Source of the DNA: a virus
Taxonomy: Duplodnaviria; Caudoviricetes
Length of the DNA: 64,000 nucleotides
Direction: 5' to 3' (one strand)
IMG/VR virus record: IMGVR_UViG_3300044630_004720
The notes beneath the pieces are model-generated. The model was not told where the DNA came from. It worked only from the letters and a program-made list of their open reading frames with translations, and ran no database searches. Positions 8,463 through 23,757 of the stretch are shown here, in pieces (within the stretch, counting starts at the first letter, position 1; every line of letters starts with the position of its first letter). The position numbers and the translations under genes were made by a program.

Positions 8463-8494
8463 AATTAAAATATACAAAATATTTTCATAAAAGC

Positions 8495-10069: not shown

Positions 10070-10082
10070 ATTTTTTTACTTG

Positions 10083-10156
10083 TGGACCAGCCTGGATTCG
10101 AACCAGGGACCTACTGATTATGAGTCAGGTGCTCTAACCTACTGAGCTACAAGTCC
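10083..10156 (-). tRNA. tRNA-Ile2(CAT) (or elongator Met)
   Basis: GGACTTGTAGCTCAGTAGGTTAGAGC...CT-CAT-AA...GGTTCGAATCC; the body resembles lysidine-type Ile2 tRNAs; no encoded CCA. Confidence 0.85.
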
Positions 10157-10179
10157 ATATCGTGCGATTACACGATGTG

Positions 10180-10668: not shown

Positions 10669-10678
10669 AACATTTCCG

Positions 10679-10752
10679 TGATTCCGATTGGATTCGAACC
10701 AATGACCTACTCTTTAGAAGAGAGTTGCTCTATCCAACTGAGCTACGAAACC
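10679..10752 (-). tRNA. tRNA-Arg(TCT)
   Basis: Cloverleaf with anticodon arm ACTCT-CT-TCT-AA-AGAGT. Confidence 0.93.
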
Positions 10753-10790
10753 AAATAACACTACCGTCTTTGAAAGTTTTTATTTAATTG

Positions 10791-11039
10791 TTATGCCTTA
10801 CGGCTAGTTATTAATTTACTTTCAAGTTTATCTAAACGTGAATCTAATGCCCTATAAACATCATTAATTGCATTTTCACGTTCTCTGTTTTGAATTTCAA
10901 TTTCTCTTCCGAGACATTGTTGCACTTCTTCAATTTCTTTGTTATGTTTTTTCACCTTAACAAAGGCCATTACAGCAACTACCGCAACTGCGATAACCAC
11001 CACAACGGACATTCCTAAAATAAATGATAATATATCCAT
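10791..11039 (-). CDS. N-terminal TM + coiled-coil protein
   Basis: Probable start MDILSF at 11039, preceded by AAAGGAG 9 nt upstream; TM helix then heptads. Confidence 0.65.
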   Translation of the reverse strand: MDILSFILGMSVVVVIAVAVVAVMAFVKVKKHNKEIEEVQQCLGREIEIQNRERENAINDVYRALDSRLDKLESKLITSRKA

Positions 11040-11079
11040 ATTATGTTTCTCCTTTATTTTCAAAGAACGATAGTGTTTG

Positions 11080-11165
11080 TACCTGGGGCGGGAATCGAAC
11101 CCGCACGGACCTTACGGTCCAACAGATTTTAAGTCTGTCTTGTCTACCTATTCCAACACCCAGGC
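11080..11165 (-). tRNA. tRNA-Leu(TAA)
   Basis: Anticodon arm ACAGA-CT-TAA-AA-TCTGT; long variable arm. Confidence 0.93.
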
Positions 11166-11255
11166 AGTTTATTTAAAACGTCAAAGAACCCTAATTAAAG
11201 TATAAGGAAAATTTTTAATAAAAAAAAACCCGAACAAAAAATTTTCGGGAGTCAG

Positions 11256-11327
11256 TACTCGGTACGGGATTCGAACCCGTGCTACGTCCGTGAAAGGGAC
11301 GCGACCTAACCACTAGTCGAACCGAGC
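11256..11327 (-). tRNA. tRNA-Glu(TTC)
   Basis: Anticodon arm CGTCC-CT-TTC-AC-GGACG. Confidence 0.93.
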
Positions 11328-11422
11328 AAATAAGAACTAACATTGCTATCAGGGTTTAAATGGTTCACAGATAAATCCGAATCACCACCTACCGATTTTA
11401 CGGTATCTTAGTTAATTCTTTG

Positions 11423-11509
11423 CGGAGGCTCAGGGATTCGAACCCCAGATACCGTTTCCAGTATGACGGTTTTCAAGACCGTTCCATTCAACCACTCTGG
11501 CAAGCCTCC
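11423..11509 (-). tRNA. tRNA-Ser(TGA)
   Basis: Anticodon arm ACGGT-CT-TGA-AA-ACCGT; long variable arm; G73. Confidence 0.93.
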
Positions 11510-11678
11510 AATCGTTGTTTCAACTTGCAAGTTTACTCTTAACATCTCTTTCTCTACAACGACTGAACTTAATCACATTTGTAGTCCGAATGTGGCGTTG
11601 GGTAATTACTCCGTGCCTCTATGTAACTCTATGTACCTTGCTTTGTTACTAAGCGTGTTAAGTGTATGAAACAACTTG

Positions 11679-11750
11679 CGGTCCCACCGGGAATCGAACC
11701 CGGCACTTTGCCGTGACAGGGCAATATTATAGCCGATTAACTATAGGACC
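11679..11750 (-). tRNA. tRNA-Asp(GTC)
   Basis: Anticodon arm TTGCC-CT-GTC-AC-GGCAA; G73. Confidence 0.93.
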
Positions 11751-11833
11751 GTTTTGATTCTAACTCATCTTAAGTTGCACCACCCAAGTCATAGCTCTGG
11801 TTGACAAAGTCCTCGTTGAGTTAGTCTCAATTG

Positions 11834-11905
11834 TTGCGAGAGGGGGAATCGAACCCCCGACCTCAAGGTTATGAGCCTTGCGAGCTACCGCTGCTCTATC
11901 TCACG
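11834..11905 (-). tRNA. Initiator tRNA-fMet(CAT)
   Basis: C1:A72 mismatch, D-arm AGAGCAGCGGTAGCTC, anticodon arm CAAGG-CT-CAT-AA-CCTTG. Confidence 0.88.
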
Positions 11906-11917
11906 ATGTTCATTTTA

Positions 11918-11948
11918 CAAAGATAATAAATATATACGAATATACAAA
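11918..11948 (-). promoter_or_regulatory. Bacteroidetes-type promoter for the tRNA cluster
   Basis: TTTG-N19-TATCTTTG on the minus strand. Confidence 0.65.
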
Positions 11949-12087
11949 ATTATTTTTGTTCATTTTTTTTATCTGTTCACGGTCCGTAAACATTAGATAA
12001 TTGTGAACATTGAAAAATTGGCAGTTTTTGCCAAGTTAAATTATAAAAAATAATATACCAATAGTGACTTCTGTCATATTTATTGGT

Positions 12088-12621
12088 ATGACAAATAGAC
12101 TAAACGTATCGTTCTTACCGATACTGTATGTCCTTTTTATAGGCTTACTGGTAAGGATTTTCCAACCAATTGAGGACCCAAAATCCGTCTACGTAGATAA
12201 AGTAGAGAACAAAGTTGTTATTGGTAAACTTGCTAATAATAGAAATTTAGCATTTGGTGCCAAAAACATATTCCAAGAAATTTTACAGGATAAAGATTAT
12301 GTTATAGTCGAAGATATAACTAAAGCTGATTTGGTTTTTAGTGCTGAAATCTTATTTTTTGACGTTAATAAAACCAAGACTAATATCTCAGTATTTCATT
12401 CAGATAAAGAAGAGACTTTAGTGGTAATGAGAGGTAAGTTAACAACTAAAGAAGGTAAGAAAATCAAAGAGGCAGTTGCTGAAGAATCAAGTTCAGAAAT
12501 TTCAACATCAACATTAATAACCGATGAAGGTAGTGATAAAATAAATCAACAAGCTCTTTCATCTGCGATTAAAAAGACGTGTGAATCTTTAATAAATAAA
12601 GTGTTTTCAATTAAAAAGTAA
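12088..12621 (+). CDS. CsgG/HfaB-like fold protein with N-terminal hydrophobic anchor
   Basis: YVDKVENK...LAFGAKNIFQEIL...ADLVFSAEI...ALSSAIKKTCESLI follows the beta-alpha-beta-hairpin-alpha layout of CsgG/TolB_N-like proteins; probable start 12088 after TATTTATT (12077-12084). Confidence 0.45.
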   Translation: MTNRLNVSFLPILYVLFIGLLVRIFQPIEDPKSVYVDKVENKVVIGKLANNRNLAFGAKNIFQEILQDKDYVIVEDITKADLVFSAEILFFDVNKTKTNISVFHSDKEETLVVMRGKLTTKEGKKIKEAVAEESSSEISTSTLITDEGSDKINQQALSSAIKKTCESLINKVFSIKK

Positions 12622-12623
12622 AA

Positions 12624-14273
12624 ATGAAAAAACTATTAATTATCGGTGTGTTTTTATTATCCACCATTTCAACATTTGCTCAACTAACAGTCAATCAAAC
12701 TATAACCCCAACAACGGGATTAAAGGTTGGTGACACATTAACGGTTAAGTACACCGTAACTAGAGGGACAACGACACCAAGATATTTTTGGTTAAGATAT
12801 TCTTTTAACAATAAAGCGTTATCTATGGTACCGAACAGTACTGTGTTCTCACAAGGTAGTTCAACTCAAACGTTTTTCACCGGTTGGGATAACTATAAGT
12901 TTACACCGGCACCGAATGTTGCTGATACACAATTATATACACAATACACCACAACTCCTTGGGGATATGCTGCAAATAACGATTGGAATGTTGGTCAAAT
13001 CACAGTTCAGAGAACTGATGCTGCAATCAACGGGGATATTGCAACTCAAAAATTTGTATTGAAGGACCAAAACACATATAATGATATTCATAAATTAGAT
13101 TTATCATATGCAATTAATGACGCATCTGCTAATATATCGCCAATTACAAGAAGCTCAACAAATATTTCATTAAGTGGTGTTGTTGGTAATACTTCACAAT
13201 TTAAAGTGAAAGTTTTATTCCCACAAGGATATACAATTACTGACCATAATGTTCAATTAATGAAATTAAAAACAGATGGTAGTGGTACTATTGATTGGTC
13301 ACAACAACCAATTGCTCAATTACCTTTAGATGCAACGGGTGAGGCATTATTTACAACACAAGTTAAAGTTGGTGATAGTTTAGGTGTGTTTGTTAGTCCT
13401 GCATCACAAAAGGCTTGGATGAATAACGTTATTACAGTTTCAGACGCATACAAAGCGTTTTTAGGACATTCACAAACAGATATATCAGGAACTGCGAACT
13501 TCTTTACTTATCCAAATTTAGAGAAGAAGATTGGTAACATCACTAAAAATGATAGTGTATTTAATGAATCAGATTCATATTACTCATTTGCTTATGTTAT
13601 GGGTCAAGACGTTTCAACAAATGCGTTCATTCCAACACAAGCGGCAACTTCTTGGAGATGGCATAGTGGTTTATTAAATCAAGATTGGTTAAATGGTAAT
13701 ATTAAAAATAAAGTTACAATTGATACTCCTGTTAAAGAAGTGTATGCAGTGTACGCGTGGGGTGGTGACTTAAACTGGTCACATTCATCAGACCCAGCAG
13801 TAATTGCTAGTAGAATAAGTGCCGGACAATACACAAACTCAGTAAATTCAATTAATACTAAGACATCGATGTCAACACAATCAATGTCATATAAAGCTGA
13901 AGCGGTAGAAACTGCTAAGTTGAGTGTAACATCAACATTGGAAAACGGTAAAGTTGTATTAACAACAAATTTAACAAAAGAAGGATTGGCAGGATTGGAA
14001 GTTATTATGAACTATGACGAATCAAAATTAACATTGGATAATGTGATATTTGACGCGGGTTCAACAATAACAAACTTTTCAACACATAAAGACGGTAGAT
14101 TAACTTTCGGTTCTATTGACCAATTGAAAACTGCAAGAATTAAGACAGGAACTCCGTATAAGTTGATATTCACACCAAAAACAACTTTAACAAATACCGC
14201 CGGTTTATTCTACTTTGTTTTATCTGATGCTGTTGATGCGAAAGGAAATAAAGTTGATTTAATCGTCGAGTAA
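12624..14273 (+). CDS. Secreted protein with cohesin-like, dockerin-like and cohesin-like domains
   Basis: Sec signal STFA|Q; GDTLTVKYTV...LRYSFNNKAL; ITVSDAY...GNITKNDSVFNESDSY; GLEVIMNYDESKLTL...SDAVDAKG. Confidence 0.6.
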   Translation: MKKLLIIGVFLLSTISTFAQLTVNQTITPTTGLKVGDTLTVKYTVTRGTTTPRYFWLRYSFNNKALSMVPNSTVFSQGSSTQTFFTGWDNYKFTPAPNVADTQLYTQYTTTPWGYAANNDWNVGQITVQRTDAAINGDIATQKFVLKDQNTYNDIHKLDLSYAINDASANISPITRSSTNISLSGVVGNTSQFKVKVLFPQGYTITDHNVQLMKLKTDGSGTIDWSQQPIAQLPLDATGEALFTTQVKVGDSLGVFVSPASQKAWMNNVITVSDAYKAFLGHSQTDISGTANFFTYPNLEKKIGNITKNDSVFNESDSYYSFAYVMGQDVSTNAFIPTQAATSWRWHSGLLNQDWLNGNIKNKVTIDTPVKEVYAVYAWGGDLNWSHSSDPAVIASRISAGQYTNSVNSINTKTSMSTQSMSYKAEAVETAKLSVTSTLENGKVVLTTNLTKEGLAGLEVIMNYDESKLTLDNVIFDAGSTITNFSTHKDGRLTFGSIDQLKTARIKTGTPYKLIFTPKTTLTNTAGLFYFVLSDAVDAKGNKVDLIVE

Positions 14274-14274
14274 T

Positions 14275-16566
14275 ATGAAGAAACTATTAGTAATATGTTT
14301 TTTACTAATTTCATTTTTAGGGTTCGGACAGAGTGTATCTGCTCCGGACTCTAAATCATTTTTACCATCTACTAATGGACAAGATGCTAGTGGATTTGTC
14401 TTAAACGGATTTAGTTCCACTGCAACATTATTAGCATCAATCAGTTTAGTTAATCCACCATCAGGAACGACATTTGTATTAAACACAACAACAGGTTTAA
14501 CCGCTGCAAGTGGATTCACTTTAGCGGGTAATAAGACTCGTTTAGTGGTAACAGGTACAATGGCTAATATCAATACCGCATTATCATCTCTTAAAGTAAA
14601 CACAGGTTCAGTAAGAGGTAATGTTGTATTATCAGTGGCAGCAACCGTAAATCCAACCGGATATTTCTATAACGGAACAAATGGACACTTTTATAGACCT
14701 ATAACAACCGGAACAACTTATACAAATGCTAGAACACTTGCATCACAACAAACATTCAAAGGACAGCAAGGATATTTGGTAACAATAACTTCAGCAGATG
14801 AAGATGCTTTCATTTTTAATAATGTTCCACAAAATCAAATATGGTTTGCATTAACCGATGAAGTGGTGGAAGGACAATGGAGAATTGACGCTGGGCCTGA
14901 ATCTGGTACTTTAATCAAAACATCAAATGGACAAACTGCAGGAAATATACAAGGACAATATAATAACTGGGCGGGTGGTGAACCAAATAATAGTGGTAAC
15001 GAAGATTATGCGGTAACAAAATGGAATGGTTCTCAATGGAATGATTTACCAAATGGGTTTAATAATCCGTATGTGATTGAATTTGGAACTTGGACTAATC
15101 CTGATGATGCAACATTTACAGAGTTTTATACTAATTCAGTAACACATTCAAACGGAGAAGTCTTAACCGCAAGATTTAATTTTGATTTTGGTGGTAATGT
15201 TGATGAAACAAAATTTACCGCAAAATCAAATACGTTTGTAAACAATGTGTGGGGAACAACAACTAACACATCAAGAACAATAAGTGGATTAGGTAAAGTT
15301 GATTTAACAAATGATTTGGATACCACAAAAATAAATGGTGGTGGTGTTAGAGCAACAACATCAGGTGGACAAGTAGAATGGTGTGTAGTATATGATTACG
15401 AACCACAAAATCAAAGATACCAAATTTTAATTGATAAAAGAGAATTCCCACAAGGTACTTCAGCAAGTAGTGTTACTACTTTACAATTATTTGATTTATG
15501 GAATGGACCTGTAACTTATCAATGGGATGATGGAACTTGGGCAGCATATTGGATTTATACACCAACAGAATTTAATTTCTCTGGTTCATCATTTACATCT
15601 AATATAAGACGAGCGGGATTTTTTTGGGGGTTAAGTGCGGAATTTACATTCACACCAAATATGGTATTTAAACAACACGGGATTGATTTATCATATACCA
15701 ACCAAACCGAATTAAACACTTTATATAATAGTGTTGTAACCGTATCAGACGTTTTTATTGCCTTTAAAGAATTGTCAAATGGTGGAATATTTGGGAATGA
15801 AAGTGGAAACGAATTCACATCAGGTATTCAATTTATGAATGCAGATGTTGATGGTAATGGTATTTTTAATGAATCGGACACTTACAAATTATTACAACAT
15901 TTAACAGGGGTTGTACCACTAACACAATATTCTACTTTAACTTATTTGATGAAATTATATAGTAAAACCGAATATGATGCAATAACCAAATCAAATTGGA
16001 GCTCACAATTTAATTCAACAAGAAGTTTATATCCATTTAATTTGAATAGTGGTACGTTGAATAATACCTACAATGTTAATGTAACTTGGGTGGGTGATGT
16101 GAACTTGTCTCATTCGGCACTACAAACCACAAGTGGTGTTGTAAGTAATTCAATTAGAACTATGAGTTCATCAACTATGAGTTCATCAGTTCCTAATCAA
16201 ATCAATGCAACTCTTATGGGTGAAAACATCGGTGGTAAAGTTGTAATAACAATTTCGGTAGACCCTCTACAACAAGAATTAGTAGGAACTCAATTCCAAG
16301 TAAATTATGATAATACCTCATTAGAATTTCAAAAGGTAGATTTTACAACAAAGGGTAATCCTACAAATTTTGGAACAGACAGAGGTACGTATGTCACATT
16401 AGGTTCGTTAATTACAGATGGTTCAAATACATTGGATAAAATGACGGAGTATAAGATAACATTTATACCAAAAGTCGGCATTCAAGGAATATTGGGGTTA
16501 ACATCAATATCCGCCACGGATGCGGTTAATAAGAATGGAACATCTTTAAAAATAAAAATAAATTAA
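14275..16566 (+). CDS. Secreted adhesin-like protein: Ig-like + C-type lectin + dockerin-like + cohesin-like
   Basis: Signal FLGFG|Q; VVTGTMANINTALSSL; GYLVTITSADED..WFALTD..EGQW..YNNWAGGEPNN..WNDLP..YVIEF; NADVDGNGIFNESDTY; GTQFQVNYDNTSLEF. Confidence 0.7.
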   Translation: MKKLLVICFLLISFLGFGQSVSAPDSKSFLPSTNGQDASGFVLNGFSSTATLLASISLVNPPSGTTFVLNTTTGLTAASGFTLAGNKTRLVVTGTMANINTALSSLKVNTGSVRGNVVLSVAATVNPTGYFYNGTNGHFYRPITTGTTYTNARTLASQQTFKGQQGYLVTITSADEDAFIFNNVPQNQIWFALTDEVVEGQWRIDAGPESGTLIKTSNGQTAGNIQGQYNNWAGGEPNNSGNEDYAVTKWNGSQWNDLPNGFNNPYVIEFGTWTNPDDATFTEFYTNSVTHSNGEVLTARFNFDFGGNVDETKFTAKSNTFVNNVWGTTTNTSRTISGLGKVDLTNDLDTTKINGGGVRATTSGGQVEWCVVYDYEPQNQRYQILIDKREFPQGTSASSVTTLQLFDLWNGPVTYQWDDGTWAAYWIYTPTEFNFSGSSFTSNIRRAGFFWGLSAEFTFTPNMVFKQHGIDLSYTNQTELNTLYNSVVTVSDVFIAFKELSNGGIFGNESGNEFTSGIQFMNADVDGNGIFNESDTYKLLQHLTGVVPLTQYSTLTYLMKLYSKTEYDAITKSNWSSQFNSTRSLYPFNLNSGTLNNTYNVNVTWVGDVNLSHSALQTTSGVVSNSIRTMSSSTMSSSVPNQINATLMGENIGGKVVITISVDPLQQELVGTQFQVNYDNTSLEFQKVDFTTKGNPTNFGTDRGTYVTLGSLITDGSNTLDKMTEYKITFIPKVGIQGILGLTSISATDAVNKNGTSLKIKIN

Positions 16567-16571
16567 AAATT

Positions 16572-16868
16572 ATGAATATATCATTTGACTATAATGAGAT
16601 GAAGAATTTTATCTCTCACACGGGTAAATATAAAATTGTAAATGTTAAGTGTTTTATTCAAGTTCCTAGTAGTTGGTATAATCAATTTAGAAGAGAAGAA
16701 GAAGAAGTAGATATGGAAGTGGCTTACCTAATAGATGATATTGAGACTGAAAAATGGATATTTGACGAAAGATATAGAAAAAGAAAAGACGAACTTATGA
16801 GATGGAGTATCGAATCAGTTTTTTACAGAGAATTCAAAAGTAAAATATTAGATTTATTATATAAATGA
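16572..16868 (+). CDS. Hypothetical protein
   Basis: 98-aa ORF tightly packed in the operon; no signal peptide. Confidence 0.55.
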   Translation: MNISFDYNEMKNFISHTGKYKIVNVKCFIQVPSSWYNQFRREEEEVDMEVAYLIDDIETEKWIFDERYRKRKDELMRWSIESVFYREFKSKILDLLYK

Positions 16869-17752
16869 AAAAACTATTATTAATCATATCGTTAGTTTTA
16901 ATTGGGTTTGTTGCAAACGCACAAACACCCGATACATTACAACTATCTCCAAAAGAACTATTCGGAGAAAGTGATGATTGGAACGATGTGGGTATATTAC
17001 AATCCTATGTTAATTTTTCAAAAGATGTACTTTCATCATCAAATCTTTCAATAGGTGTAATTGGAAAACAAGTATCTACTACTCTTAATTTAGGGTACCA
17101 TAAATCGTCTTTAAATGGTCAATGGGGACATTCATTTGCTGCATCAATAAATCCTATATGGAACTATTATGGTGTGGGTTATGGTCTTAGTAAAAACACA
17201 GAAAAAAGAACAACTACAATACAAACATTCTATTCGACCGATTTTGATTTCCAAAAAGATGTTACATTATCATTTATTGATGTATTCAGAACTAAAAAGT
17301 TTGGAACATTTGGATATAGTTTAACAGCATCAAAATCATTTTGGGGAACTTATCAAGGTGAATGGGAAGGGAAATACACGGTAGATGAAAATGGTGATTT
17401 TAAAGATTTAATATATCCACAAATACCGGCATCATCCGAACTTACTTATAGAGGTATGGTGATGTACACTTACACATTGAAAACAAAGAGGGTAGATATT
17501 TCACCACAAGTATTTGCAATGAGTGATGTATATAAAGTATTCAAAGATGGAACTGAATCGGATTTATCATATGTAGATGATTTTAATTTGGACTTATATT
17601 ATGGTACATCTATTGATTGGAAAATAACTAAAAGATTTGTGTTGAATACCAATATCAGATATAATACAACTTGGGATAAATTAAGTGAATCAGTAGGTTA
17701 TAAAAAAAGTAACCCAATAATGTTTATGATAGGAACAAACTTTCAATTTTAA
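16865..17752 (+). CDS. Outer-membrane beta-barrel candidate
   Basis: Signal FVANA|Q; alternating amphipathic strands; C-terminal MIGTNFQF (aromatic BAM-type end). Confidence 0.7.
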   Translation: MKKLLLIISLVLIGFVANAQTPDTLQLSPKELFGESDDWNDVGILQSYVNFSKDVLSSSNLSIGVIGKQVSTTLNLGYHKSSLNGQWGHSFAASINPIWNYYGVGYGLSKNTEKRTTTIQTFYSTDFDFQKDVTLSFIDVFRTKKFGTFGYSLTASKSFWGTYQGEWEGKYTVDENGDFKDLIYPQIPASSELTYRGMVMYTYTLKTKRVDISPQVFAMSDVYKVFKDGTESDLSYVDDFNLDLYYGTSIDWKITKRFVLNTNIRYNTTWDKLSESVGYKKSNPIMFMIGTNFQF

Positions 17753-17755
17753 CAT

Positions 17756-18097
17756 ATGAAAAAAATACTATTCATATTTGTGATTTTACTATGGGGTTGT
17801 ACAAAAATGGAAATAGAACCTACCCCACCTCCTGTTGAGAAGATATTTACAGTGGGTGAGAGTACCGTTACTAATGGACAATCCATATATTTTGACCTAC
17901 CGTCCTCGGGAATATATACCCTAACATTTGTTGACGTTCAGACAGGACAAGTTATTAGTCGGGAAAAATTTACAGGTCAATCCGGCGAAAATGTGAAAAA
18001 AATATATACCAAATCCATAATGTCGAAGTATTTATATTTGATACTTGCTTCGGAAGACAAAACCCAAATAAGTAAGACAAAACTAACACTAAACTAA
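17756..18097 (+). CDS. Lipoprotein with T9SS-CTD/FlgD-like Ig domain
   Basis: Lipobox LWGC; IYFDLPSSGIYTLTFVDVQTGQVI...GENVKKIYTK. Confidence 0.55.
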   Translation: MKKILFIFVILLWGCTKMEIEPTPPPVEKIFTVGESTVTNGQSIYFDLPSSGIYTLTFVDVQTGQVISREKFTGQSGENVKKIYTKSIMSKYLYLILASEDKTQISKTKLTLN

Positions 18098-18098
18098 A

Positions 18099-18476
18099 AT
18101 GAAAAAACTAATCTTAACGGTATTTGTACTATTTGCCCTTACGGGGTGTTATAAAGATGATTTACTTCTTCCTGATATTAAACAGGATTTAAAACCTGAA
18201 TTACAAATTGCCAATAGCGTTGGTATTAAGTTAGAATCGGCTTTTGTAACCAAAGAAGTGTCAATGAATGTAAAACTTGAGAAGTCAGGTACAGTAACTT
18301 TAAAAATATTCGATATTGGAAATAAAGTAGTTTCAAAAGAAACTATAAATGTGAAAGAGGGTGATAATGTGTTAAAAATATACACATCAGCATTACCTTC
18401 TTCAGCATATAGAATTGGGTTATTTGATAACTCGGGGACTATGTTGGGTATCACAGATTTTAATAAAATAAACTAA
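18099..18476 (+). CDS. Lipoprotein with T9SS-CTD/FlgD-like Ig domain
   Basis: Lipobox LTGC; SGTVTLKIFDIGNKVV...EGDNVLKIYTSALPSSAYRI resembles the Por secretion C-terminal domain pattern. Confidence 0.6.
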   Translation: MKKLILTVFVLFALTGCYKDDLLLPDIKQDLKPELQIANSVGIKLESAFVTKEVSMNVKLEKSGTVTLKIFDIGNKVVSKETINVKEGDNVLKIYTSALPSSAYRIGLFDNSGTMLGITDFNKIN

Positions 18477-18496
18477 AAATTTTAAAACAAACAAAT

Positions 18497-18817
18497 ATGT
18501 CAGAAGAAGTAGAAAGCTCAAACGATGGTACTTGGTCAGGTCTTAAAAAGACCATTATTGGTGTTGCAACAACTGCGGTAATGGGTCTAGGGACTTGGGG
18601 AGTAACACAAATAACAGGTGGTGGAGATGAACCCGCACCTGTACAACAAGCAGCACCTGTAATTAACATTACAAACTCAAACCAACAAGCTCAACAGGCT
18701 TCAGGTGGTGGAGGTAAAACTGTTATTATTAAAGAAAAAGAAACCGTTAAAGAACCTGCAAAACCGGTTAAGAAAAAAGAAGGTGATGAATTTAAAGAGG
18801 AAGCTCCAAAATGGTAA
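18497..18817 (+). CDS. Single-TM protein
   Basis: IIGVATTAVMGLGTWGV helix followed by a low-complexity tail. Confidence 0.65.
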   Translation: MSEEVESSNDGTWSGLKKTIIGVATTAVMGLGTWGVTQITGGGDEPAPVQQAAPVINITNSNQQAQQASGGGGKTVIIKEKETVKEPAKPVKKKEGDEFKEEAPKW

Positions 18818-18823
18818 TTTAAT

Positions 18824-19426
18824 ATGAAAGAAGAACAATCAGGTGGATTTAAAGAATTATTGAGTAATATGATGAAACGTAGGTGGTTTATCACCGCTAT
18901 CGTTTTAGGCGGATTTATGGTAATCATTATGGGGATATTTGGAGCGATTCTAAATAAATCCGCAATAGAAGGTGAGTGGAAAGAACTTTTACTTTTATTA
19001 TTGGGAGCCTTCATTGGTTCTTATGGTAAAATCATTGACTATTGGTTTAGTGATACCGATAAGGATAAGATGTTGGTTCAAAAAATGGACGAGGAAGATG
19101 GTACATCATTAAGTAATACTGCCGATATGCCAAACAATCCAATTGTACCAATGTCAACTGCGCCATTAGTATTATCAGAATCAACCTCACAAGAAACAGT
19201 ACAAGTGGTTGAAGCACCAAAAGAAGAAAAGAAAGGTGTTGAAATCGATGAAGATGGTGATGGTGTAATGGATGGTTTAGATTTCGATGGCGATGGTAAA
19301 ATTGACGAATACTTTACACACAGACAATGCGAACACGTTTGGGGCGACTCAGATGGTGACGGAGATTTAGAATGTCTTAAATGTGGTAAAATAAAAGACC
19401 CCGAACTTGAAGAAATGGAAGGGTAA
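18824..19426 (+). CDS. Two-TM protein with DxDxDG Ca-binding-like repeats and Cys/His metal site
   Basis: Two TM helices; DEDGDG, DFDGDG, DSDGDG; CEH...CLKC. Confidence 0.65.
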   Translation: MKEEQSGGFKELLSNMMKRRWFITAIVLGGFMVIIMGIFGAILNKSAIEGEWKELLLLLLGAFIGSYGKIIDYWFSDTDKDKMLVQKMDEEDGTSLSNTADMPNNPIVPMSTAPLVLSESTSQETVQVVEAPKEEKKGVEIDEDGDGVMDGLDFDGDGKIDEYFTHRQCEHVWGDSDGDGDLECLKCGKIKDPELEEMEG

Positions 19427-19452
19427 TAAACAAAGACAAAAAAACAAAAACT

Positions 19453-19716
19453 ATGGGATTTTTAAAAGAACTTTTTAACGACAATAATACAATCAATGAA
19501 AAATCAGTTGTTGGTTTTGCATCATTTGTATGTATGGTAATTGCTTTAGTGGTTGACTTGGTAACAGGTTGGTTGGGTAAAGAATTACTAATTAACGAAT
19601 TTATATTCGACGGTTTCTTAGTAATAACGTTAGGTGCATTTGGTATTGCGTCAGTTGATAAATATATCAATAACAAACACAACAAAAAAGAAGAAACTGA
19701 AGAATCAGAGGGATAA
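19453..19716 (+). CDS. Small two-TM membrane protein (holin-sized)
   Basis: Two hydrophobic helices and a charged C-terminus. Confidence 0.6.
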   Translation: MGFLKELFNDNNTINEKSVVGFASFVCMVIALVVDLVTGWLGKELLINEFIFDGFLVITLGAFGIASVDKYINNKHNKKEETEESEG

Positions 19717-19744
19717 TAAGATTGACAAAAAAACTAATTAAATA

Positions 19745-19978
19745 ATGGTAAAATTAATTGACAAAATAACAGAAAATCTTTTCTCAGCATTTTTAATGTC
19801 TGCGTTAGCATTTGTCATATCGGCATTCTGCGTACAAATGTTTTTTGTGTGTTTACAATTTTCAGGTAATGAAGAATATCAAAGAAGATTAGTCAACAAA
19901 CTTGAAATTAAGTTTGATGGTAGATTTAAGAATAATCCAGAAAACATTATGTACGAAGGACCAATAGCTAAGAAATAA
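19745..19978 (+). CDS. Small TM protein
   Basis: Hydrophobic N-terminal half. Confidence 0.55.
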   Translation: MVKLIDKITENLFSAFLMSALAFVISAFCVQMFFVCLQFSGNEEYQRRLVNKLEIKFDGRFKNNPENIMYEGPIAKK

Positions 19979-19986
19979 AAAATATA

Positions 19987-20706
19987 ATGAAAAAAATAAT
20001 TTTATTTTTGGGTGTCATACTTTTTAGTGTAAACTCATTTGGACAAACAATTGGAAAAACAAAAACTGAAGAATTTAAAGCTGAATTTGAAAAGAAAAAA
20101 GACATTTCGGCTTTTATGGATTATGACGGACCTCAAATACCCATACAAATTCTAAAAGCAGGTATCTCTGATGAGGTATATGAAATGTATCCTGAATTAA
20201 AAGAAAAAAGAGTTGGTTTAGGTGTTGCAAATATATCTATGGAATATTTGGAAAATCTTAATCGATTCATTTTTACAGAGGATAAAACTGAAATCAAGAA
20301 TAGAATGGTTAAACAATTCCAAGCGTCCCAAGCCGGTATATCTGAAGATAAATTAGATGGTCGCGGTAAAATTAGGTTAGCCAAATATTTTGTCACAGTT
20401 GAGTGTTATGACTATTCAATATCTGAAGACGAGACAATTAACTTAAAGGATGGTATTAAAGATAATATGGTCACCCGAATTGGTTTACAGGTTAGATTTA
20501 CCGATGCGGAAACGGGTGCTATGTTTGGGGCTTCAGGTTTAGGTGAAGCCAAAACAAGTCGTGAGTTAACATTATTATCAGACGCAACTATAGACCCAAT
20601 TAAATTTAATCAATCAACAATTTCAATTGCAACAAAAAAAGCACTTGACATTGCTTGTGCTAATATTTTAGACAGAATGATTAAAAAGGGGATTTTTACA
20701 AAATAA
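19987..20706 (+). CDS. CsgG/HfaB-family secretion/assembly protein
   Basis: Signal NSFG|Q; GLGVANISMEYLENLNRFIFTE...AKYFVTVECYDY...RIGLQVRFTDAETG...GLGEA...KKALDIAC matches the CsgG layout (RFxVxER, LRxxDxxTG). Confidence 0.7.
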   Translation: MKKIILFLGVILFSVNSFGQTIGKTKTEEFKAEFEKKKDISAFMDYDGPQIPIQILKAGISDEVYEMYPELKEKRVGLGVANISMEYLENLNRFIFTEDKTEIKNRMVKQFQASQAGISEDKLDGRGKIRLAKYFVTVECYDYSISEDETINLKDGIKDNMVTRIGLQVRFTDAETGAMFGASGLGEAKTSRELTLLSDATIDPIKFNQSTISIATKKALDIACANILDRMIKKGIFTK

Positions 20707-20730
20707 ATCGTTTAACATAGTATGATTAAT

Positions 20731-20760
20731 AAAAAAGGAGGCCTAAAGACCTCCTTTTTT
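20731..20760 (+). terminator. Intrinsic terminator
   Basis: aaaaaaggagg-cctaaaga-cctcctttttt. Confidence 0.8.
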
Positions 20761-20789
20761 GATATTTATAAGATATAAAATTTATTGCT

Positions 20790-21620
20790 ATGAAAAAATT
20801 ATTATTAGTATTGACACTTATCCCAATACTATCTTTTTCACAAGTTAGTAATTGGAGAAGTAACCCAACAACACCACAAAGAAGTACACCATCCGTACAA
20901 CAATCAATTCCACAAAGAAACGATGTTAGTAATTGGAGAAGTCAACCACCATCAAGAGGGTATGATAGACCTATAAGAACAAGACCAGGTTCTAATATCA
21001 TTGTAAGAGACCCGTGGTTTGGTGGATTAGGATGGGGATGGAATAGATGGGATATGTGGGGAGCTCCTGGCTTTGGTTGGAACTTTTGGCAACCGTCTTG
21101 GTATTGGAATGATTGGGGATATAGACAACCACAAAGAATTTATGTTTACGAAGATGGTAAGAGAGATACAATTAGAGGTAAAAAGCCGGTAATTAGTTTT
21201 GGTATTCAGAGAACAACCGATAAACAATTGGGTGGGTTCTTTACCATCGGTAATAAGGGATATTTTATAATGGAATATAATTCAAGTGTAGAGAGAGATA
21301 ATTCAACATTCTTTCCATATGGTAATATAACCCAAGTAGACTTTCCAATGGTCAGTGATTTAGTTCAAAGAAATAGTTTCTATATCGGAGCAGGTAAAAG
21401 AATAAAGAGAACCGGTGTTCACTTTATGATTGGTACTGTTTCCGAAGATGTAAAATGGAGAGGTAGAGATGATTTGGGATATATTACTTTCCCAAAGTAT
21501 TTGGATAGATTCACCACGATAAAAGTGGGTGCATTACACGATTTCAAAAACTTAACAATAAAGTTTGATTACGACCCTGTAATCAATAATAAAACCTTTG
21601 GATTAGGTGTAAATTTTTAA
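20790..21620 (+). CDS. Exported protein: disordered R/P/W/G-rich N-terminus + small beta-barrel
   Basis: Signal LSFS|Q; repeated SNWRS; GWGW-rich segment; C-terminal FGLGVNF. Confidence 0.65.
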   Translation: MKKLLLVLTLIPILSFSQVSNWRSNPTTPQRSTPSVQQSIPQRNDVSNWRSQPPSRGYDRPIRTRPGSNIIVRDPWFGGLGWGWNRWDMWGAPGFGWNFWQPSWYWNDWGYRQPQRIYVYEDGKRDTIRGKKPVISFGIQRTTDKQLGGFFTIGNKGYFIMEYNSSVERDNSTFFPYGNITQVDFPMVSDLVQRNSFYIGAGKRIKRTGVHFMIGTVSEDVKWRGRDDLGYITFPKYLDRFTTIKVGALHDFKNLTIKFDYDPVINNKTFGLGVNF

Positions 21621-21623
21621 AAT

Positions 21624-22352
21624 ATGATTGATTTCGATTATAAGATTTACAAAATGTATGATGTTTTAAGTAAGGAAGAATATGATAAAGTTTCTGAATT
21701 AGTTAATAATTTCAATATTGATTTAAAAAATGTAACTTCTCCATTAGGTTTTTTGCAATGGTCCAATAAAATACAAAACGCATTTAAATTAAAACATCCT
21801 GACAGATATAATAGGATGGTTAATAATAATAGTTACAACTACAAAGATTATCAATGTTTAGCCGAACTTAATAAAGAAATAGGAGTAGATGAACACGATT
21901 ATTTTAATTTTTTAATGACATATAGGACGGAGGATTTAATGAATAGTAGAATCGTAAAATTATACGACACTGCCTTTAGAAATATTTTAAAAGATGTATT
22001 CAAAAAGGAAGTCATATATGACAAAGTGCTTTTTGGACATTTTAATATCTACCCGAAAAATTCATTTATTGTAAATCATACCGATGGACCAATGGCCGAT
22101 GATAGATATTTTACTTCTTTATTTTTTTTGAATTGTGGAAGAAAATATGAAGACGGTTCATTATTAAAAATATACACTAAAAATGGGGTTGTTGATGTGA
22201 TACCTGATTTTAACGATATTGTACTATTAGACCATATGAATTATAACTGCCGTCACGAAGTGACAGAAAATTTAATTGATGGTATTAGATATTCTCTTTA
22301 CACACCGTTTAAATTAGATGATTACAATAATAAATTAAAACAAGACATTTAA
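21624..22352 (+). CDS. 2OG-Fe(II) oxygenase superfamily protein
   Basis: NHTD (HxD), distal RHEV and RYS (RxS) motifs. Confidence 0.75.
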   Translation: MIDFDYKIYKMYDVLSKEEYDKVSELVNNFNIDLKNVTSPLGFLQWSNKIQNAFKLKHPDRYNRMVNNNSYNYKDYQCLAELNKEIGVDEHDYFNFLMTYRTEDLMNSRIVKLYDTAFRNILKDVFKKEVIYDKVLFGHFNIYPKNSFIVNHTDGPMADDRYFTSLFFLNCGRKYEDGSLLKIYTKNGVVDVIPDFNDIVLLDHMNYNCRHEVTENLIDGIRYSLYTPFKLDDYNNKLKQDI

Positions 22353-22356
22353 TTTT

Positions 22357-23757
22357 TTGAAAAATATAATAAAACCATTTTTAATATTATTTTTTATTTT
22401 CATTTCAAACGAGGTGATTGGTCAAACATACACTCAAACATTTATTGATAAGTGTACGGGTGAAAAGAAAATTGCAACGACTACTATGATAAATGGATAC
22501 GCGACAGTATCTTTTTATAATCAAGTAAGGACATTTACACCATTGGAAGTTCAAACGGGTGTTGTACAAACTTGGTTAATCACAACAAAATCAACATACG
22601 AGTCACTTACTTGTCCTGTAATTAATAATCCGGTGGTTCAACAAGCGGTTGCGAATGCTGCAACACAAGCGGCAGCGTCGGCTGCTAGTTCAGCCGCAGC
22701 ATCTGCCGCAAGTTCTGCGGCTTCATCATCCGCCAGCTCAGCAGCAAGTAGTAGTGCAAGTTCAGCCGCAGCAAGTTCAGCTGCGTCAACACCTCCACCT
22801 ACAACACCTCCACCGGCAAGTAGTGGTTCAACACCTCCACCGGCAAGTGGAGGAAGTTCATCTTCATCAAGTAGTGGTTCATCTTCTGAAAGTAAAACAG
22901 AAACAAAGACTGAAACTAAATCCGAAACTAAATCGGAAAGTAAGAGCGAATCAAAATCCGAAAGTAAGAGTGAGGAGAAAAAAGAAGAAACCAAATCGGA
23001 ATCTAAAGAAGAAAAGAAAGAAGAGTCTAAATCTGAAGAAAAGAAAGAAGAGAAGAAGGAAGAAAAAAAAGAGGAAAAGAAAAAAGAAAAAGCAGCATCA
23101 ACAAATCCGATGTTGTTATCTTCGGATTTATCAACAATAGAATCTCCTGACGGTAGATGGTTACAATCTGCAACGATTGGTGTATCTAAATCTTCGTTGA
23201 TGGGAGATAAGAGTTATTCCGCAAATGCGGTTATTATGAGTGATTTAAAAACATTTATAGTAAGTGCCGGATTTACTAAAATGGATTTTTCGAATGGTAA
23301 ATTAAATGCCATTCATTCGTATTCATCAGCATTCGCCTACTTGAATGGTAACTATATGAACCTATTAGGATATACCTACATAAAACCAACATTAAAAAAG
23401 GGAGTATTTGGTTACAATGTCGGTCTAATTAACCTATTACTTAATAATAGTGAAAAAGGAGGATATGACCATAATATGTCAACATCTGTAGTTGCCTTTT
23501 GGACTAAACCATATCAGTACAGTAAAAAATTAACTATCTCACCACAGATATTCACAATGTTTGCACCAATATCGTATAACAGCGAAGCTAAGACCACAAC
23601 AGTTAATAGACATATGGGATTCTTATTGGGGTCTTCGTTTGATTATAAAATAAGTAAACGATTTGGACTTAGTTTGAATTATAAATTGAGTGGTAATACC
23701 GCACCCGGTTCTCCATTCTTGAATAATATTTTGATTGGTAGTAGAATGATACTATAA
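22357..23757 (+). CDS. Exported protein: small Cys domain, long low-complexity stalk, C-terminal beta-barrel
   Basis: Signal EVIG|Q; Ala/Ser, Pro, Ser, K(S/T)E and EEKK tracts; amphipathic strands GSSFDYKISKRFGLSLNYK. Confidence 0.7.
   Translation: MKNIIKPFLILFFIFISNEVIGQTYTQTFIDKCTGEKKIATTTMINGYATVSFYNQVRTFTPLEVQTGVVQTWLITTKSTYESLTCPVINNPVVQQAVANAATQAAASAASSAAASAASSAASSSASSAASSSASSAAASSAASTPPPTTPPPASSGSTPPPASGGSSSSSSSGSSSESKTETKTETKSETKSESKSESKSESKSEEKKEETKSESKEEKKEESKSEEKKEEKKEEKKEEKKKEKAASTNPMLLSSDLSTIESPDGRWLQSATIGVSKSSLMGDKSYSANAVIMSDLKTFIVSAGFTKMDFSNGKLNAIHSYSSAFAYLNGNYMNLLGYTYIKPTLKKGVFGYNVGLINLLLNNSEKGGYDHNMSTSVVAFWTKPYQYSKKLTISPQIFTMFAPISYNSEAKTTTVNRHMGFLLGSSFDYKISKRFGLSLNYKLSGNTAPGSPFLNNILIGSRMIL

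What the first reader, a model, noticed from the sequence alone, without database searches (positions are those of the whole stretch)
12077..23757. Phage-encoded outer-membrane export/adhesin module (CsgG-like pores, beta-barrels, cohesin-dockerin-lectin cargo, lipoproteins)
Seen: about 11.7 kb of same-strand, tightly packed genes, nearly all with Sec or lipoprotein signals or TM helices. They include two CsgG/HfaB-like proteins, two large cohesin/dockerin-like proteins (one with a C-type lectin domain), three beta-barrel candidates, two CTD-like lipoproteins and four small inner-membrane proteins. Late-type TATTTAT motifs at 12077 and 20763 precede the sub-operons. Known: CsgG forms the curli (type VIII) secretion pore and HfaB anchors holdfast; CsgG-like genes have been noted in large phages. 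Inference: a self-contained system that builds a glycan-binding, self-assembling layer on the infected cell. Possible roles are aggregation onto new hosts or particles, receptor masking/superinfection exclusion, or grazing protection. I know of no description of this gene combination in a phage.
Basis: partly seen in the sequence, partly recalled or inferred. Interest (0 to 1): 0.88.

Follow-up and report, generated by a model that had tools for sequence, protein, structure and literature searches.

The report
Phage-encoded cell-envelope display module
A large Flavobacterium-type phage carries a conserved 15-gene block of exported proteins, which most likely puts a sugar-binding, self-docking protein assembly on the surface of the infected cell; no such phage module turned up in the literature I searched.

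Summary
Window 12064-23757 holds 15 same-strand ORFs. Thirteen have signal peptides, lipoboxes or TM helices (crude test: 11/15 inside versus 4/58 outside, p=4e-7).

- o12 is a diverged CsgG-family protein by profile, fold and oligomer model.
- o1 is a shortened paralog of o12.
- o2 and o3 are paralogs with a C-terminal cohesin and a sub-threshold dockerin-like module. o3 also has a C-type lectin that keeps the EPN...WND motif.
- o15 is a 12-stranded OM barrel with a tethered N-domain, and o5 is its paralog. o13 is unverified.
- o6 and o7 are paralogous lipoproteins. o7 carries the Bacteroidota surface-export signal. Their likeness to a T9SS CTD stays weak.

The block is syntenic in all 31 full-flank loci among 80 kept IMG/VR loci (497 o12 relatives). 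A 7-gene version sits in cultured Flavobacterium phage immuto. The trio o12/o15/o1 recurs in marine viral contigs, and bacterial MAGs show the same architecture.

"Self-contained" fails because the cohesin protein of relatives carries a bona fide T9SS sorting domain. o12 lacks a lipobox and its hairpin is short and charged, so an outer-membrane pore is unproven. Surface display is inferred, not shown. I rate it a new variant of known kinds, with high interest.

The parts
12077..12083 (+). TATTTAT start-associated motif before o1 (first transcription unit)
   Evidence: present upstream of o1 orthologs in 19/35 loci.
12088..12621 (+). o1: 177-aa exported or membrane-anchored, shortened CsgG-family paralog (no lipobox; the ORF lists from GTG 12064, ATG 12088 is the likely start)
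   Evidence: hhalign of o1 plus marine orthologs against the o12 family: 97.5%, E 7e-12. The direct o1-versus-o12-family comparison is weak (74% over 30 columns). Atlas leads: LptE, Lipoprotein_16, DUF4410. Fused to an o11-like TM module in some relatives.
12624..14273 (+). o2: 549-aa secreted protein with a degenerate dockerin-like segment and a C-terminal cohesin
   Evidence: Paralog of o3. Cohesin profile hits.
14275..16566 (+). o3: 763-aa secreted protein with a C-type lectin (162-267, EPN...WND), a dockerin-like module (486-543) and a C-terminal cohesin (about 630-763)
   Evidence: Lectin_C 29.9 bits, above GA 22.6. EPN/WND kept in 26/34 orthologs. Dockerin_1 sub-GA in 11/11 orthologs. 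Cohesin 23.9 bits against GA 24.1, and 22/25 family members hit.
16572..16868 (+). o4: 98-aa acidic protein without an export signal; accessory
   Evidence: Found in 11 of 80 loci. No family hit.
16865..17752 (+). o5: 295-aa OM beta-barrel, paralog of the o15 barrel; signal peptide, C-terminal ...NFQF
   Evidence: hhalign against o15 93.9% over 187 columns. Atlas: autotransporter, OmpG and OMP_b-brl clusters at 0.93-0.94.
17756..18097 (+). o6: 113-aa lipoprotein (LLWGC), probably a small beta-sandwich
   Evidence: Lipobox. Paralog of o7, 98.8%.
18099..18476 (+). o7: 125-aa lipoprotein (ALTGC) followed by YKDD, which matches the Bacteroidota lipoprotein export signal K-(D/E)2
   Evidence: LES definition from PMC5080379. 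Por_Secre_tail and DUF3244 only sub-threshold.
18497..18817 (+). o8: 106-aa inner-membrane-anchored protein with a P/K/E-rich periplasmic tail; conserved partner just upstream of o12-type genes
   Evidence: Ortholog is immuto gp016, E 1e-18, overlapping the start of gp017. Found in 66/80 loci.
18824..19426 (+). o9: 200-aa membrane protein with an Asp-rich DxDGDG C-terminal region
   Evidence: Found in 64/80 loci.
19453..19716 (+). o10: 87-aa protein with two TM segments
19745..19978 (+). o11: 77-aa TM protein; the same module is fused to o1 in some relatives
19987..20706 (+). o12: 239-aa secreted CsgG-family protein (SPI signal, no lipobox), predicted to form a ring or chain oligomer
   Evidence: 17/33 relatives hit Pfam CsgG. 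Profile hits E. coli CsgG in the PDB at E 6e-4. AF2 pLDDT 86. Foldseek top hits are CsgG at E 2e-7. Four-copy model ipSAE 0.69 against best control 0.00. 82-95% identical across the 80 kept loci of 497 relatives.
20730..20761 (+). terminator-like hairpin after o12
20763..20769 (+). TATTTAT motif before o13 (second transcription unit)
   Evidence: present before o13 orthologs in 32/54 loci.
20790..21620 (+). o13: 276-aa secreted protein with a W/G/N/R-rich N-terminal region and a C-terminal part ending ...GLGVNF; candidate small barrel, unverified
   Evidence: Sequence features only. Unrelated to o5/o15. Lineage-specific.
21624..22352 (+). o14: 2OG-Fe(II) oxygenase without an export signal; accessory insert
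   Evidence: Pfam 2OG-FeII_Oxy_3, 28.6 bits. Found in 7/80 loci.
22357..23757 (+). o15: 466-aa protein with a signal peptide, a two-Cys N-domain (24-86), a Ser/Ala/Pro/Lys/Glu-rich linker of about 165 aa, and a 12-stranded OM barrel (252-464)
   Evidence: AF2 barrel pLDDT 72-85. Foldseek: NanC, FapF, TamA and autotransporter beta-domains. Orthologs sit next to o12-like genes in marine contigs and in immuto.

Best explanation
This is a conserved envelope cassette of a roughly 330-kb T4-like phage of Flavobacterium-type hosts. It has a fixed core and a variable set of exported proteins.

Shown:
- The core consists of an inner-membrane-anchored protein (o8), two CsgG-family paralogs (o12 and the shortened o1) and a 12-stranded outer-membrane barrel with a tethered N-terminal domain (o15; barrel-only paralog o5).
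- The core recurs in three phage lineages. Bacterial three-gene clusters show the same architecture: two CsgG-like proteins plus an autotransporter-type barrel.
- The variable part consists of secreted proteins built from cohesin, dockerin-like and Ca-dependent C-type lectin modules (o2, o3), plus lipoproteins (o6, o7). o7 carries the Bacteroidota surface-export signal.

Inferred:
- After Sec export, o12 and o1 form a ring at the periplasmic face of, or in, the outer membrane. Together with the o15 and o5 barrels the ring forms an export or anchoring station, tethered to the inner membrane by o8-o11.
- The lectin/cohesin/dockerin proteins are placed on the cell surface. There cohesin-dockerin contacts link them into an assembly that binds mannose-type glycans.
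- In relatives the cohesin unit travels through the host T9SS. In this lineage that tag is absent, and lipoprotein or barrel anchoring may replace it.

The purpose (adhesion or aggregation of infected cells, or masking of receptors) is not resolved.
For: Co-conservation:
- There are 497 o12 relatives in IMG/VR.
- The order o1-o2-o3-(o4)-(o5)-o6-o7-o8-o9-(o10, o11)-o12-(o13)-(o14)-o15 is kept in the 31 full-flank loci.
- The trio o12/o15/o1 is contiguous in marine viral contigs.
- Phage immuto has a 7-gene version, gp013-gp019.

CsgG family:
- 17/33 relatives hit Pfam CsgG, best E 1.9e-17.
- The family profile hits PDB CsgG at E 6e-4, aligning the family's YPEL with the CsgG constriction loop.
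- AF2 pLDDT 86 and Foldseek CsgG hits at E 2e-7; AFDB clusters agree.
- o1 against the o12 family scores 97.5%.
- A four-copy model of o12 scores ipSAE 0.69 against a best control of 0.00. That mark was reached by 20/30 solved homo-pairs and 1/23 single chains. Runs agree on at least 89% of contacts and pLDDT is at least 74. CsgG rings are solved, so the pass may come from memory.

Barrels.

Bacterial clusters of two CsgG-like genes plus a barrel.

Cargo modules:
- Cohesin, dockerin-like, lectin with EPN/WND.
- In immuto the modules sit on separate proteins: lectin with a DVNNDSRFTVSD loop, an o2-body-like protein, and cohesin plus CTD. This fission/fusion pattern suggests they work together.

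Surface routing: LES on o7 orthologs (PMC5080379) and the T9SS CTD on relatives' cohesin proteins.

Export-signal enrichment: p=4e-7.

Two transcription units share a start-associated motif with head genes.
Against: - No experiment shows export, surface location or binding.
- o12 itself does not reach any Pfam CsgG score, and the Pfam HMM finds nothing in three related genomes.
- o12 and o1 lack the lipobox that targets CsgG to the outer membrane.
- The protruding hairpin (144-162) is short and charged, and the second hairpin is not modelled.
- o2 and o3 have no recognisable OM-export tag.
- The dockerin-like module is below Pfam's cut-off and has only one canonical Ca loop.
- The phage and bacterial barrels share no detectable sequence homology.
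- o13 and o6/o7 have no confirmed fold.
Confidence: 0.5

Rival explanations
1. Pel-like polysaccharide conduit. The CsgG-fold proteins form a periplasmic funnel ring, as PelC does, under a separate barrel (o15, o5 or o13). A glycan is exported, not a protein. The lectin/cohesin proteins then bind or organise that glycan.
For: PelC dodecamers are the second-best group of fold matches for o12. o12 has no lipobox and a polar hairpin. Ring genes and barrel genes always come as separate genes, in phages and in bacteria. The lectin module is functional-looking. A glycosyltransferase lies nearby at 6173-7744 on the minus strand.
Against: CsgG matches are clearly better than PelC matches (TM 0.5-0.55 against 0.28-0.30 by query). 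The conserved YP of the CsgG constriction loop is kept. The block holds no polymerase, flippase or PelB-like TPR-porin.
Confidence: 0.13
2. Superinfection exclusion or receptor masking. The proteins insert in or coat the outer membrane to block receptors such as T9SS or gliding adhesins. No dedicated export machine is involved.
For: Phages commonly encode OM proteins and lipoproteins for exclusion (my own knowledge, not tested here). All parts are envelope-targeted. In relatives the cohesin protein enters the host T9SS.
Against: Known exclusion systems are one or two genes (my own knowledge). Here 7-15 genes are co-conserved with a fixed core. Bacterial genomes carry the same architecture without any phage context. 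Lectin and cohesin-dockerin modules point to binding and assembly rather than blocking.
Confidence: 0.15
3. Lysis or egress device. An inner-membrane protein, an OM lipoprotein or ring and barrels act like spanins or disruptins to breach the outer membrane at the end of infection.
For: Marine relatives place a TM plus coiled-coil protein directly before the o12-like lipoprotein, a spanin-like arrangement. The TATTTAT motif is shared with head genes.
Against: The block has no endolysin or holin family hit. In immuto the annotated endolysin lies about 8 kb away in another gene group. Large lectin and cohesin proteins have no place in lysis.
Confidence: 0.05
4. The block is a collection of unrelated accessory genes (morons) that only happen to be neighbours.
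For: Several members come and go between relatives: o4, o5, o10, o13, o14.
Against: Order and core content are kept across three phage lineages with 20-50% protein identity. There are fusion and fission events between members: o11-o1, and lectin/cohesin modules. Export-signal enrichment is p=4e-7.
Confidence: 0.05

Closest known systems
Curli secretion channel CsgG (type VIII secretion) and HfaB
   Same: o12 belongs to the same sequence superfamily and has the same fold. It keeps the Tyr-Pro of the constriction loop and is predicted to self-associate through two different faces, as a ring protomer would.
   Different: There is no lipobox and no CsgE, CsgF or curlin genes. The hairpin is short and charged, and the second hairpin is not modelled. 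It always comes with a second, shortened paralog and a separate 12-stranded barrel.
PelC-PelB (Pel polysaccharide export) and LptE-LptD
   Same: A CsgG-fold protein works together with a separate outer-membrane barrel. PelC and LptE are among the fold matches of o12.
   Different: The matches are weaker than to CsgG. The block has no polysaccharide or LPS genes. The barrels here are small 12-stranded ones.
FapF (Pseudomonas functional-amyloid exporter) and autotransporter beta-domains
   Same: o15 has an N-terminal domain, a long flexible linker and a 12-stranded barrel. FapF and autotransporter barrels are among its best fold matches, and the atlas top hit for o5 is an autotransporter domain.
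   Different: Foldseek E-values are only 1e-4 to 1e-3. No plug helix or passenger is modelled. There is no sequence homology and there are no Fap genes.
Cellulosome-type cohesin-dockerin assembly
   Same: Cohesin domains are detected by Pfam and by PDB profile search. A dockerin-like Ca loop plus helix is present. Both module types occur in one protein (o2, o3) or on separate proteins (immuto).
   Different: There are no enzymes or scaffoldin repeats. The dockerin-like module is below threshold with one canonical loop. The host is a Bacteroidota cell infected by a phage, and binding is untested.
Phage-encoded T9SS cargo (Cryophage, Bellas et al. 2020, PMC7468147)
   Same: A phage of a Bacteroidota host encodes proteins with a type A T9SS sorting domain. 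This holds here for immuto gp015 and the marine relatives.
   Different: The window's own proteins have no such domain. The cargo here comes with a conserved CsgG-like and barrel apparatus that is not described there.
Uncharacterised bacterial clusters of two CsgG-like genes plus an OMP_b-brl/autotransporter-type barrel (Desulfuromonadaceae, Trichloromonas MAGs)
   Same: The three-part architecture matches phage o1/o12/o15. The o12-like member is clearly homologous, E about 1e-65 to the family profile.
   Different: The bacterial members are lipoproteins. Their barrels show no detectable homology to o15 or o5. No lectin or cohesin genes were noted next to them, though their neighbours were screened only against the module profiles.

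Membership tests
CsgG/HfaB (Pfam PF03783) | Protein itself scores above the Pfam CsgG cut-off | tested here: not met
   No hit at E<=0.1 for o1 or o12. The Pfam HMM finds nothing at E<=1 in three related phage genomes.
CsgG/HfaB (Pfam PF03783) | Homology to the family through relatives or a profile | tested here: met
   17 of 33 phmmer relatives of o12 hit CsgG, best E 1.9e-17. The family profile hits E. coli CsgG chains at E 6e-4. o1 joins through marine orthologs at 97.5%.
CsgG/HfaB (Pfam PF03783) | CsgG fold | tested here: met
   AF2 pLDDT 86. Foldseek PDB top 13 hits are CsgG chains, E 2e-7, TM 0.5-0.55. AFDB clusters named CsgG, FlgT and LpoB. o1 was not folded.
CsgG/HfaB (Pfam PF03783) | N-terminal lipidation (lipobox Cys) | tested here: not met
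   o12 has ...NSFGQ|T and o1 has a signal-anchor or SPI signal. Marine and bacterial relatives do have G/S-C.
CsgG/HfaB (Pfam PF03783) | Two amphipathic transmembrane hairpins per protomer | tested here: inconclusive
   There is one long hairpin, 134-173. Its protruding part SISEDETIN-LKD-GIKDNMV is charged, and the second hairpin is modelled as coil.
CsgG/HfaB (Pfam PF03783) | Ring oligomer (nonamer) | tested here: inconclusive
   The four-copy model passes: ipSAE 0.69 against best control 0.00. Calibration is 20/30 solved homo-pairs against 1/23 single chains. Runs agree at 89% or more and pLDDT is 74 or more. Two distinct faces are used. Copy number is not tested, and the pass may reflect solved CsgG rings.
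CsgG/HfaB (Pfam PF03783) | Curli partners CsgE, CsgF, CsgA, CsgB | tested here: not met
   None of the 15 products hits such a family.
Cohesin (PF00963) | Cohesin domain by profile | tested here: met
   22 of 25 C-terminal domains of o2/o3 orthologs hit, best E 4e-7. o3's own domain scores 23.9 bits against GA 24.1. PDB cohesins are hit, 4ums at E 4e-4. Immuto gp015 scores 36.7 bits.
Dockerin type I (PF00404) | Duplicated Ca-binding loop plus helix above the cut-off | tested here: inconclusive
   11/11 o3 orthologs hit at E 6e-4 to 2e-3, 18.8 bits against GA 22.9. The PDB hits are dockerins. One canonical loop (DVDGNGIFNESD) is present and the first repeat is degenerate. o2's copy is more degenerate.
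C-type lectin (PF00059) | Domain above the cut-off and Ca/sugar motif EPN...WND | tested here: met
   29.9 bits against GA 22.6. The motif is in o3 and in 26/34 orthologs, and in immuto gp013.
T9SS cargo (Por_Secre_tail, PF18962) | C-terminal sorting domain on the window's large secreted proteins | tested here: not met
   None on o2 or o3 or their freshwater orthologs. It is present on immuto gp015 (34.6 bits) and on the marine 950-990-aa proteins (27.4 bits).
T9SS CTD-like fold (o6, o7) | Similarity to the sorting domain | tested here: inconclusive
   o7 E 0.017. Orthologs score 15-17 bits against GA 27 and are the only such hits in whole related genomes. hhalign to real CTDs scores 30% or less. 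No PDB hit.
Bacteroidota surface lipoprotein (LES) | Lipobox Cys followed by K-(D/E)2 | tested here: met
   The commonest pattern in the o7 family is C-x-K-D/E-D, in roughly half of 41 orthologs; some orthologs deviate. o6 matches only partly (C-T-K-x-E/D). Motif definition from PMC5080379. Surface exposure itself was not tested.
Outer-membrane beta-barrel (12-stranded; autotransporter/FapF/NanC class) | Closed barrel model, signal peptide, C-terminal beta-signal | tested here: met
   o15 residues 252-464: about 12-13 strands (read as a 12-stranded barrel), pLDDT 72-85. Foldseek hits NanC, FapF and autotransporter domains at E 7e-5 to 2e-3. o5 qualifies by homology and features. o13 was not tested.
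Phage lysis cassette (holin-endolysin-spanin) | Endolysin or holin family member in or next to the block | tested here: not met
   No such Pfam or PHROG hit. The immuto endolysin is annotated about 8 kb away.

The most novel reading that the evidence does not exclude
The pair of CsgG-family rings (o12 and o1), a 12-stranded barrel and an inner-membrane tether form a previously unrecognised outer-membrane export and display route. The route exists in bacteria as uncharacterised three-gene clusters. Large Flavobacterium phages have captured it to build a lectin/cohesin-dockerin coat on the infected cell. This would be the first phage-encoded secretion-and-display machine.
Probability: 0.3. Interest if true: 0.9.

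Novelty: new variant of a known kind. Interest (0 to 1): 0.78.

Why it matters
Tailed phages are known to carry single outer-membrane or lipoprotein genes, and one report describes T9SS cargo genes. I found no report of a conserved multi-part envelope apparatus with its own cargo.

This block is highly conserved: o12 is 82-95% identical across the 80 kept loci, and 497 o12 relatives were found. It is abundant in freshwater metagenomes, where o5 alone has 892 near-identical database proteins. That points to an important step in how large phages handle Flavobacterium cells, which are key degraders of algal matter.

The work also exposes an uncharacterised bacterial cluster of two CsgG-like genes plus a barrel. 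It identifies a cultured phage-host pair, immuto with Flavobacterium sp. LMO8, in which the hypotheses can be tested directly.

Tried and rejected
- PHROGs and NCBIfam gave nothing useful for the 15 proteins.
- Megablast of the block against GenBank phages found no match. The nearest held record, G001, shares only 33 bases.
- Single-sequence PDB searches for o1 and o12 found nothing.
- The direct o1-versus-o12 comparison was BLASTP-negative, and hhalign gave only 74% over 30 columns. This was resolved through marine orthologs.
- The search for homologous proteins on o5 returned only near-identical unnamed proteins.
- The search for related loci in genome contigs failed twice because the alignments were too diverse. 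It worked with a narrower one.
- Contigs encoding P0019 and P0043 were short.
- o6/o7 against real T9SS CTDs by hhalign scored 30% or less, and the o6/o7 profile against the PDB found nothing.
- Bacterial barrels against phage barrels scored under 30%. The marine 285-aa barrel, TM/coiled-coil and 240-aa TM proteins showed no match to window proteins.
- The literature search for CsgG together with jumbo or huge phages found nothing relevant.
- A virion role was considered and rejected because of the signal peptides, lipoboxes and T9SS tag.

Full report
**Context**

The window is part of a large tailed phage. It encodes a large terminase, a portal, a T4-like major capsid protein and a Lon-like protease, seven tRNAs and a tmRNA. 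Related IMG/VR records reach 323,865 bp (97% complete) and 335,630 bp (100% complete). The nearest cultured capsid relatives are Microcystis phage Mel-JY01 and Flavobacterium phage vB_FspM_immuto.

**Observation**

Between the minus-strand tRNA array and minus-strand genes lie 15 plus-strand ORFs, o1 to o15, at 12064/12088-23757.

- Thirteen have a signal peptide, a lipobox or TM segments. o4 and o14 (a 2OG-Fe(II) oxygenase) have none.
- By a crude N-terminal hydrophobicity test, 11/15 pass inside the block against 4/58 in the rest of the window (p=4e-7).
- TATTTAT occurs at 12077 and 20763. It is not enriched overall (34 found, 41.5 expected).
- However, 16 of the 34 copies lie within 45 nt upstream of a same-strand ATG. 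No other permutation of the same letters exceeds 14%.
- The motif also precedes the portal and neighbouring head genes. In relatives it is kept before o1 (19/35 loci) and o13 (32/54 loci), and never before o2, o3, o5, o7, o8, o9 or o15.
- A terminator-like hairpin at 20730-20761 follows o12. Two transcription units, o1-o12 and o13-o15, are therefore likely.

**Co-conservation**

- o12 has 497 relatives in IMG/VR. The best 80 are 82-95% identical and sit on contigs of up to 335 kb.
- All 31 loci with full flanks keep the same gene order. o4, o5, o10, o13 and o14 are dispensable, and some lineages have a reduced version.

**CsgG-like proteins**

- o12 has no direct Pfam hit.
- phmmer against 1.84 billion representatives found 222 relatives. 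Of 33 full-length ones, 17 hit Pfam CsgG (best E 1.9e-17) and 7 hit LpoB.
- Their profile hits E. coli CsgG in the PDB at E 6e-4. The alignment places the family's conserved YPEL..KRVG on the CsgG constriction loop YPASNFSTAV.
- The AF2 model has pLDDT 86. It matches CsgG best (E 2e-7, TM 0.5-0.55), then PelC, FlgT, HpaA and LptE. AFDB clusters agree, as do language-model features.
- Four copies are predicted to associate through two different faces. The score is ipSAE 0.69 against a best control of 0.00. That mark was reached by 20/30 solved homo-pairs and 1/23 single chains. Runs agree on at least 89% of contacts and pLDDT is at least 74. Because CsgG rings are solved, this pass may come from memory.
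- Against a true pore: there is no lipobox (bacterial and marine relatives have one), the protruding hairpin (144-162) is short and charged, and the second hairpin is not modelled.
- o1 looked unrelated at first. Marine o1 orthologs match marine o12-like proteins by phmmer (E 1e-7). The combined o1 family matches the o12 family at 97.5%, E 7e-12. o1 is thus a shortened paralog.
- In some relatives o1 is fused to an o11-like TM module.

**Cargo-like proteins**

- o2 and o3 are paralogs.
- Their last 135 residues are a cohesin. Pfam hits 22/25 orthologs, and o3's own domain scores 23.9 bits against a cut-off of 24.1. PDB cohesins are also hit.
- o3 residues 486-543 are dockerin-like. All 11 orthologs hit at E 6e-4 to 2e-3, below the cut-off, and the PDB hits are dockerins. 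One Ca loop is canonical.
- o3 has a C-type lectin above the cut-off. Its EPN...WND sugar/Ca motif is kept in 26/34 orthologs.
- Some orthologs carry LCCL instead of the lectin.

**Barrels**

- o15 has a small two-Cys N-domain, a low-complexity linker of about 165 residues, and a 12-stranded barrel (pLDDT 72-85).
- The barrel resembles NanC, FapF, TamA and autotransporter beta-domains.
- o5 is a barrel-only paralog (93.9%) with barrel-type features.
- o13 is unrelated to these, and its barrel nature rests on sequence features only.

**Lipoproteins**

- o6 and o7 are paralogs (98.8%) with conserved lipoboxes.
- In o7 orthologs the commonest pattern after the lipobox is C-x-K-D/E-D, though some deviate. 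This fits the Bacteroidota lipoprotein export signal K-(D/E)2 (PMC5080379).
- Likeness to a T9SS CTD is only sub-threshold and is not supported by hhalign or PDB searches.

**Relatives that explain the block**

- Marine viral contigs reached through a 35%-identical o12 relative hold o12-like, o15-like and o1-like genes side by side.
- These are preceded by a 950-990-aa secreted protein with Cohesin (E 1.3e-5) and a T9SS sorting domain (27.4 bits, at the cut-off of 27), a barrel, and a TM/coiled-coil protein.
- The cultured Flavobacterium phage immuto (160 kb) has a seven-gene version:
  - gp013: lectin with a DVNNDSRFTVSD loop.
  - gp014: o2-body-like.
  - gp015: Cohesin 36.7 bits plus Por_Secre_tail 34.6 bits.
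  - gp016: o8-like.
  - gp017: o12-like, 53.5% identical.
  - gp018: o15-like.
  - gp019: o1-like.
- In immuto the annotated endolysin lies elsewhere.
- In complete relatives of the window's phage, no protein reaches the T9SS-domain cut-off.
- Bacterial MAGs (Desulfuromonadaceae, Trichloromonas) carry clusters of a CsgG-like paralog, an o12-like lipoprotein and a 323-384-aa barrel. Relatives of that barrel hit OMP_b-brl or Autotransporter. The barrels are not detectably homologous to o15.

**Reading**

The fixed core is an inner-membrane tether, two CsgG-family paralogs and a barrel. It behaves as one apparatus that phages share with bacteria. The variable part is a set of lectin, cohesin and dockerin-like modules that are shuffled between proteins. 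This pattern suggests they assemble with one another.

The host is Bacteroidota, most likely Flavobacterium. The evidence is the immuto host, the T9SS tags in relatives, the LES motif and the signal-peptide style.

The most likely function is display of a Ca-dependent, glycan-binding, self-docking assembly on the infected cell. The core would serve as an export or anchoring station. This is inference.

The rivals are a PelBC-like glycan conduit, receptor masking and a lysis device. They are less well supported but not excluded.

**Novelty**

- Phage-encoded T9SS cargo has been reported once (PMC7468147).
- I found no paper linking CsgG-like genes to jumbo or huge phages.
- GenBank annotates the immuto genes only as lectin-domain, cohesin-domain or hypothetical proteins.
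- First-stage notes of this scan had flagged the same stretch. None had been followed up.

Noticed in passing
window-wide, e.g. 28137, 33796, 37111, 37874, 40968, 59670, 61136 (+); 45540, 56192, 59646 (-): TATTTAT is a start-associated element. 16 of 34 copies lie within 45 nt upstream of a same-strand ATG, including the portal and neighbouring head genes. No other permutation of the same letters exceeds 14%. It is a candidate phage promoter or initiation element.
   Followed up: partly
L093:5393-7802, L096:5294-7784, L102:4957-7212: Bacterial MAGs (Desulfuromonadaceae, Trichloromonas) have an uncharacterised three-gene cluster: a CsgG-like paralog, an o12-like lipoprotein and a 323-384-aa barrel of OMP_b-brl/autotransporter type. 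The architecture matches the phage core.
   Followed up: partly
L091:8175-14649 (NC_055915.1 9935-16409): Cultured Flavobacterium phage vB_FspM_immuto carries a 7-gene mini-module, gp013-gp019. It sits directly after a secreted non-specific endonuclease (gp012, Endonuclease_NS E 1e-25 with a signal peptide) and among replication genes.
   Followed up: partly
window 5372-5769 (-) and 10082-11905 (-): A phage-borne tmRNA (tag GNVYNQMEVAGLLATSKVAA) and an array of seven tRNAs lie directly upstream of the block on the opposite strand. A TATTTAT copy at 11926-11932 (-) precedes the array.
   Followed up: no
window 24856-26874 (-): A Lon-like ATP-dependent protease (phrog_4871, E 6e-242) lies just downstream of the block.
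   Followed up: no
window 21624-22352 (+): A 2OG-Fe(II) oxygenase without an export signal is inserted between o13 and o15. Only 7 of 80 related loci have it. It might modify the Pro-rich linkers of its neighbours, but this is untested.
   Followed up: no
window 19200-19426 (+), C-terminal part of o9: There is an Asp-rich repeat, DEDGDGVMDGLDFDGDGKIDEY...GDSDGDGD, followed by CxxC. It looks like Ca-binding loops and could be a further docking motif. The topology (one or two TM segments) is uncertain.
   Followed up: no
L012:2307-4913, L013:2708-5293: Some o3 orthologs (862-869 aa) carry an LCCL domain (E 5e-14). This shows that the binding module of this protein is swapped between related phages.
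   Followed up: no
window 6173-8477 (-): Glycosyltransferase genes (phrog_2456/1579, E 1e-22) lie about 4 kb upstream of the block. They are relevant to the polysaccharide-export rival.
   Followed up: no
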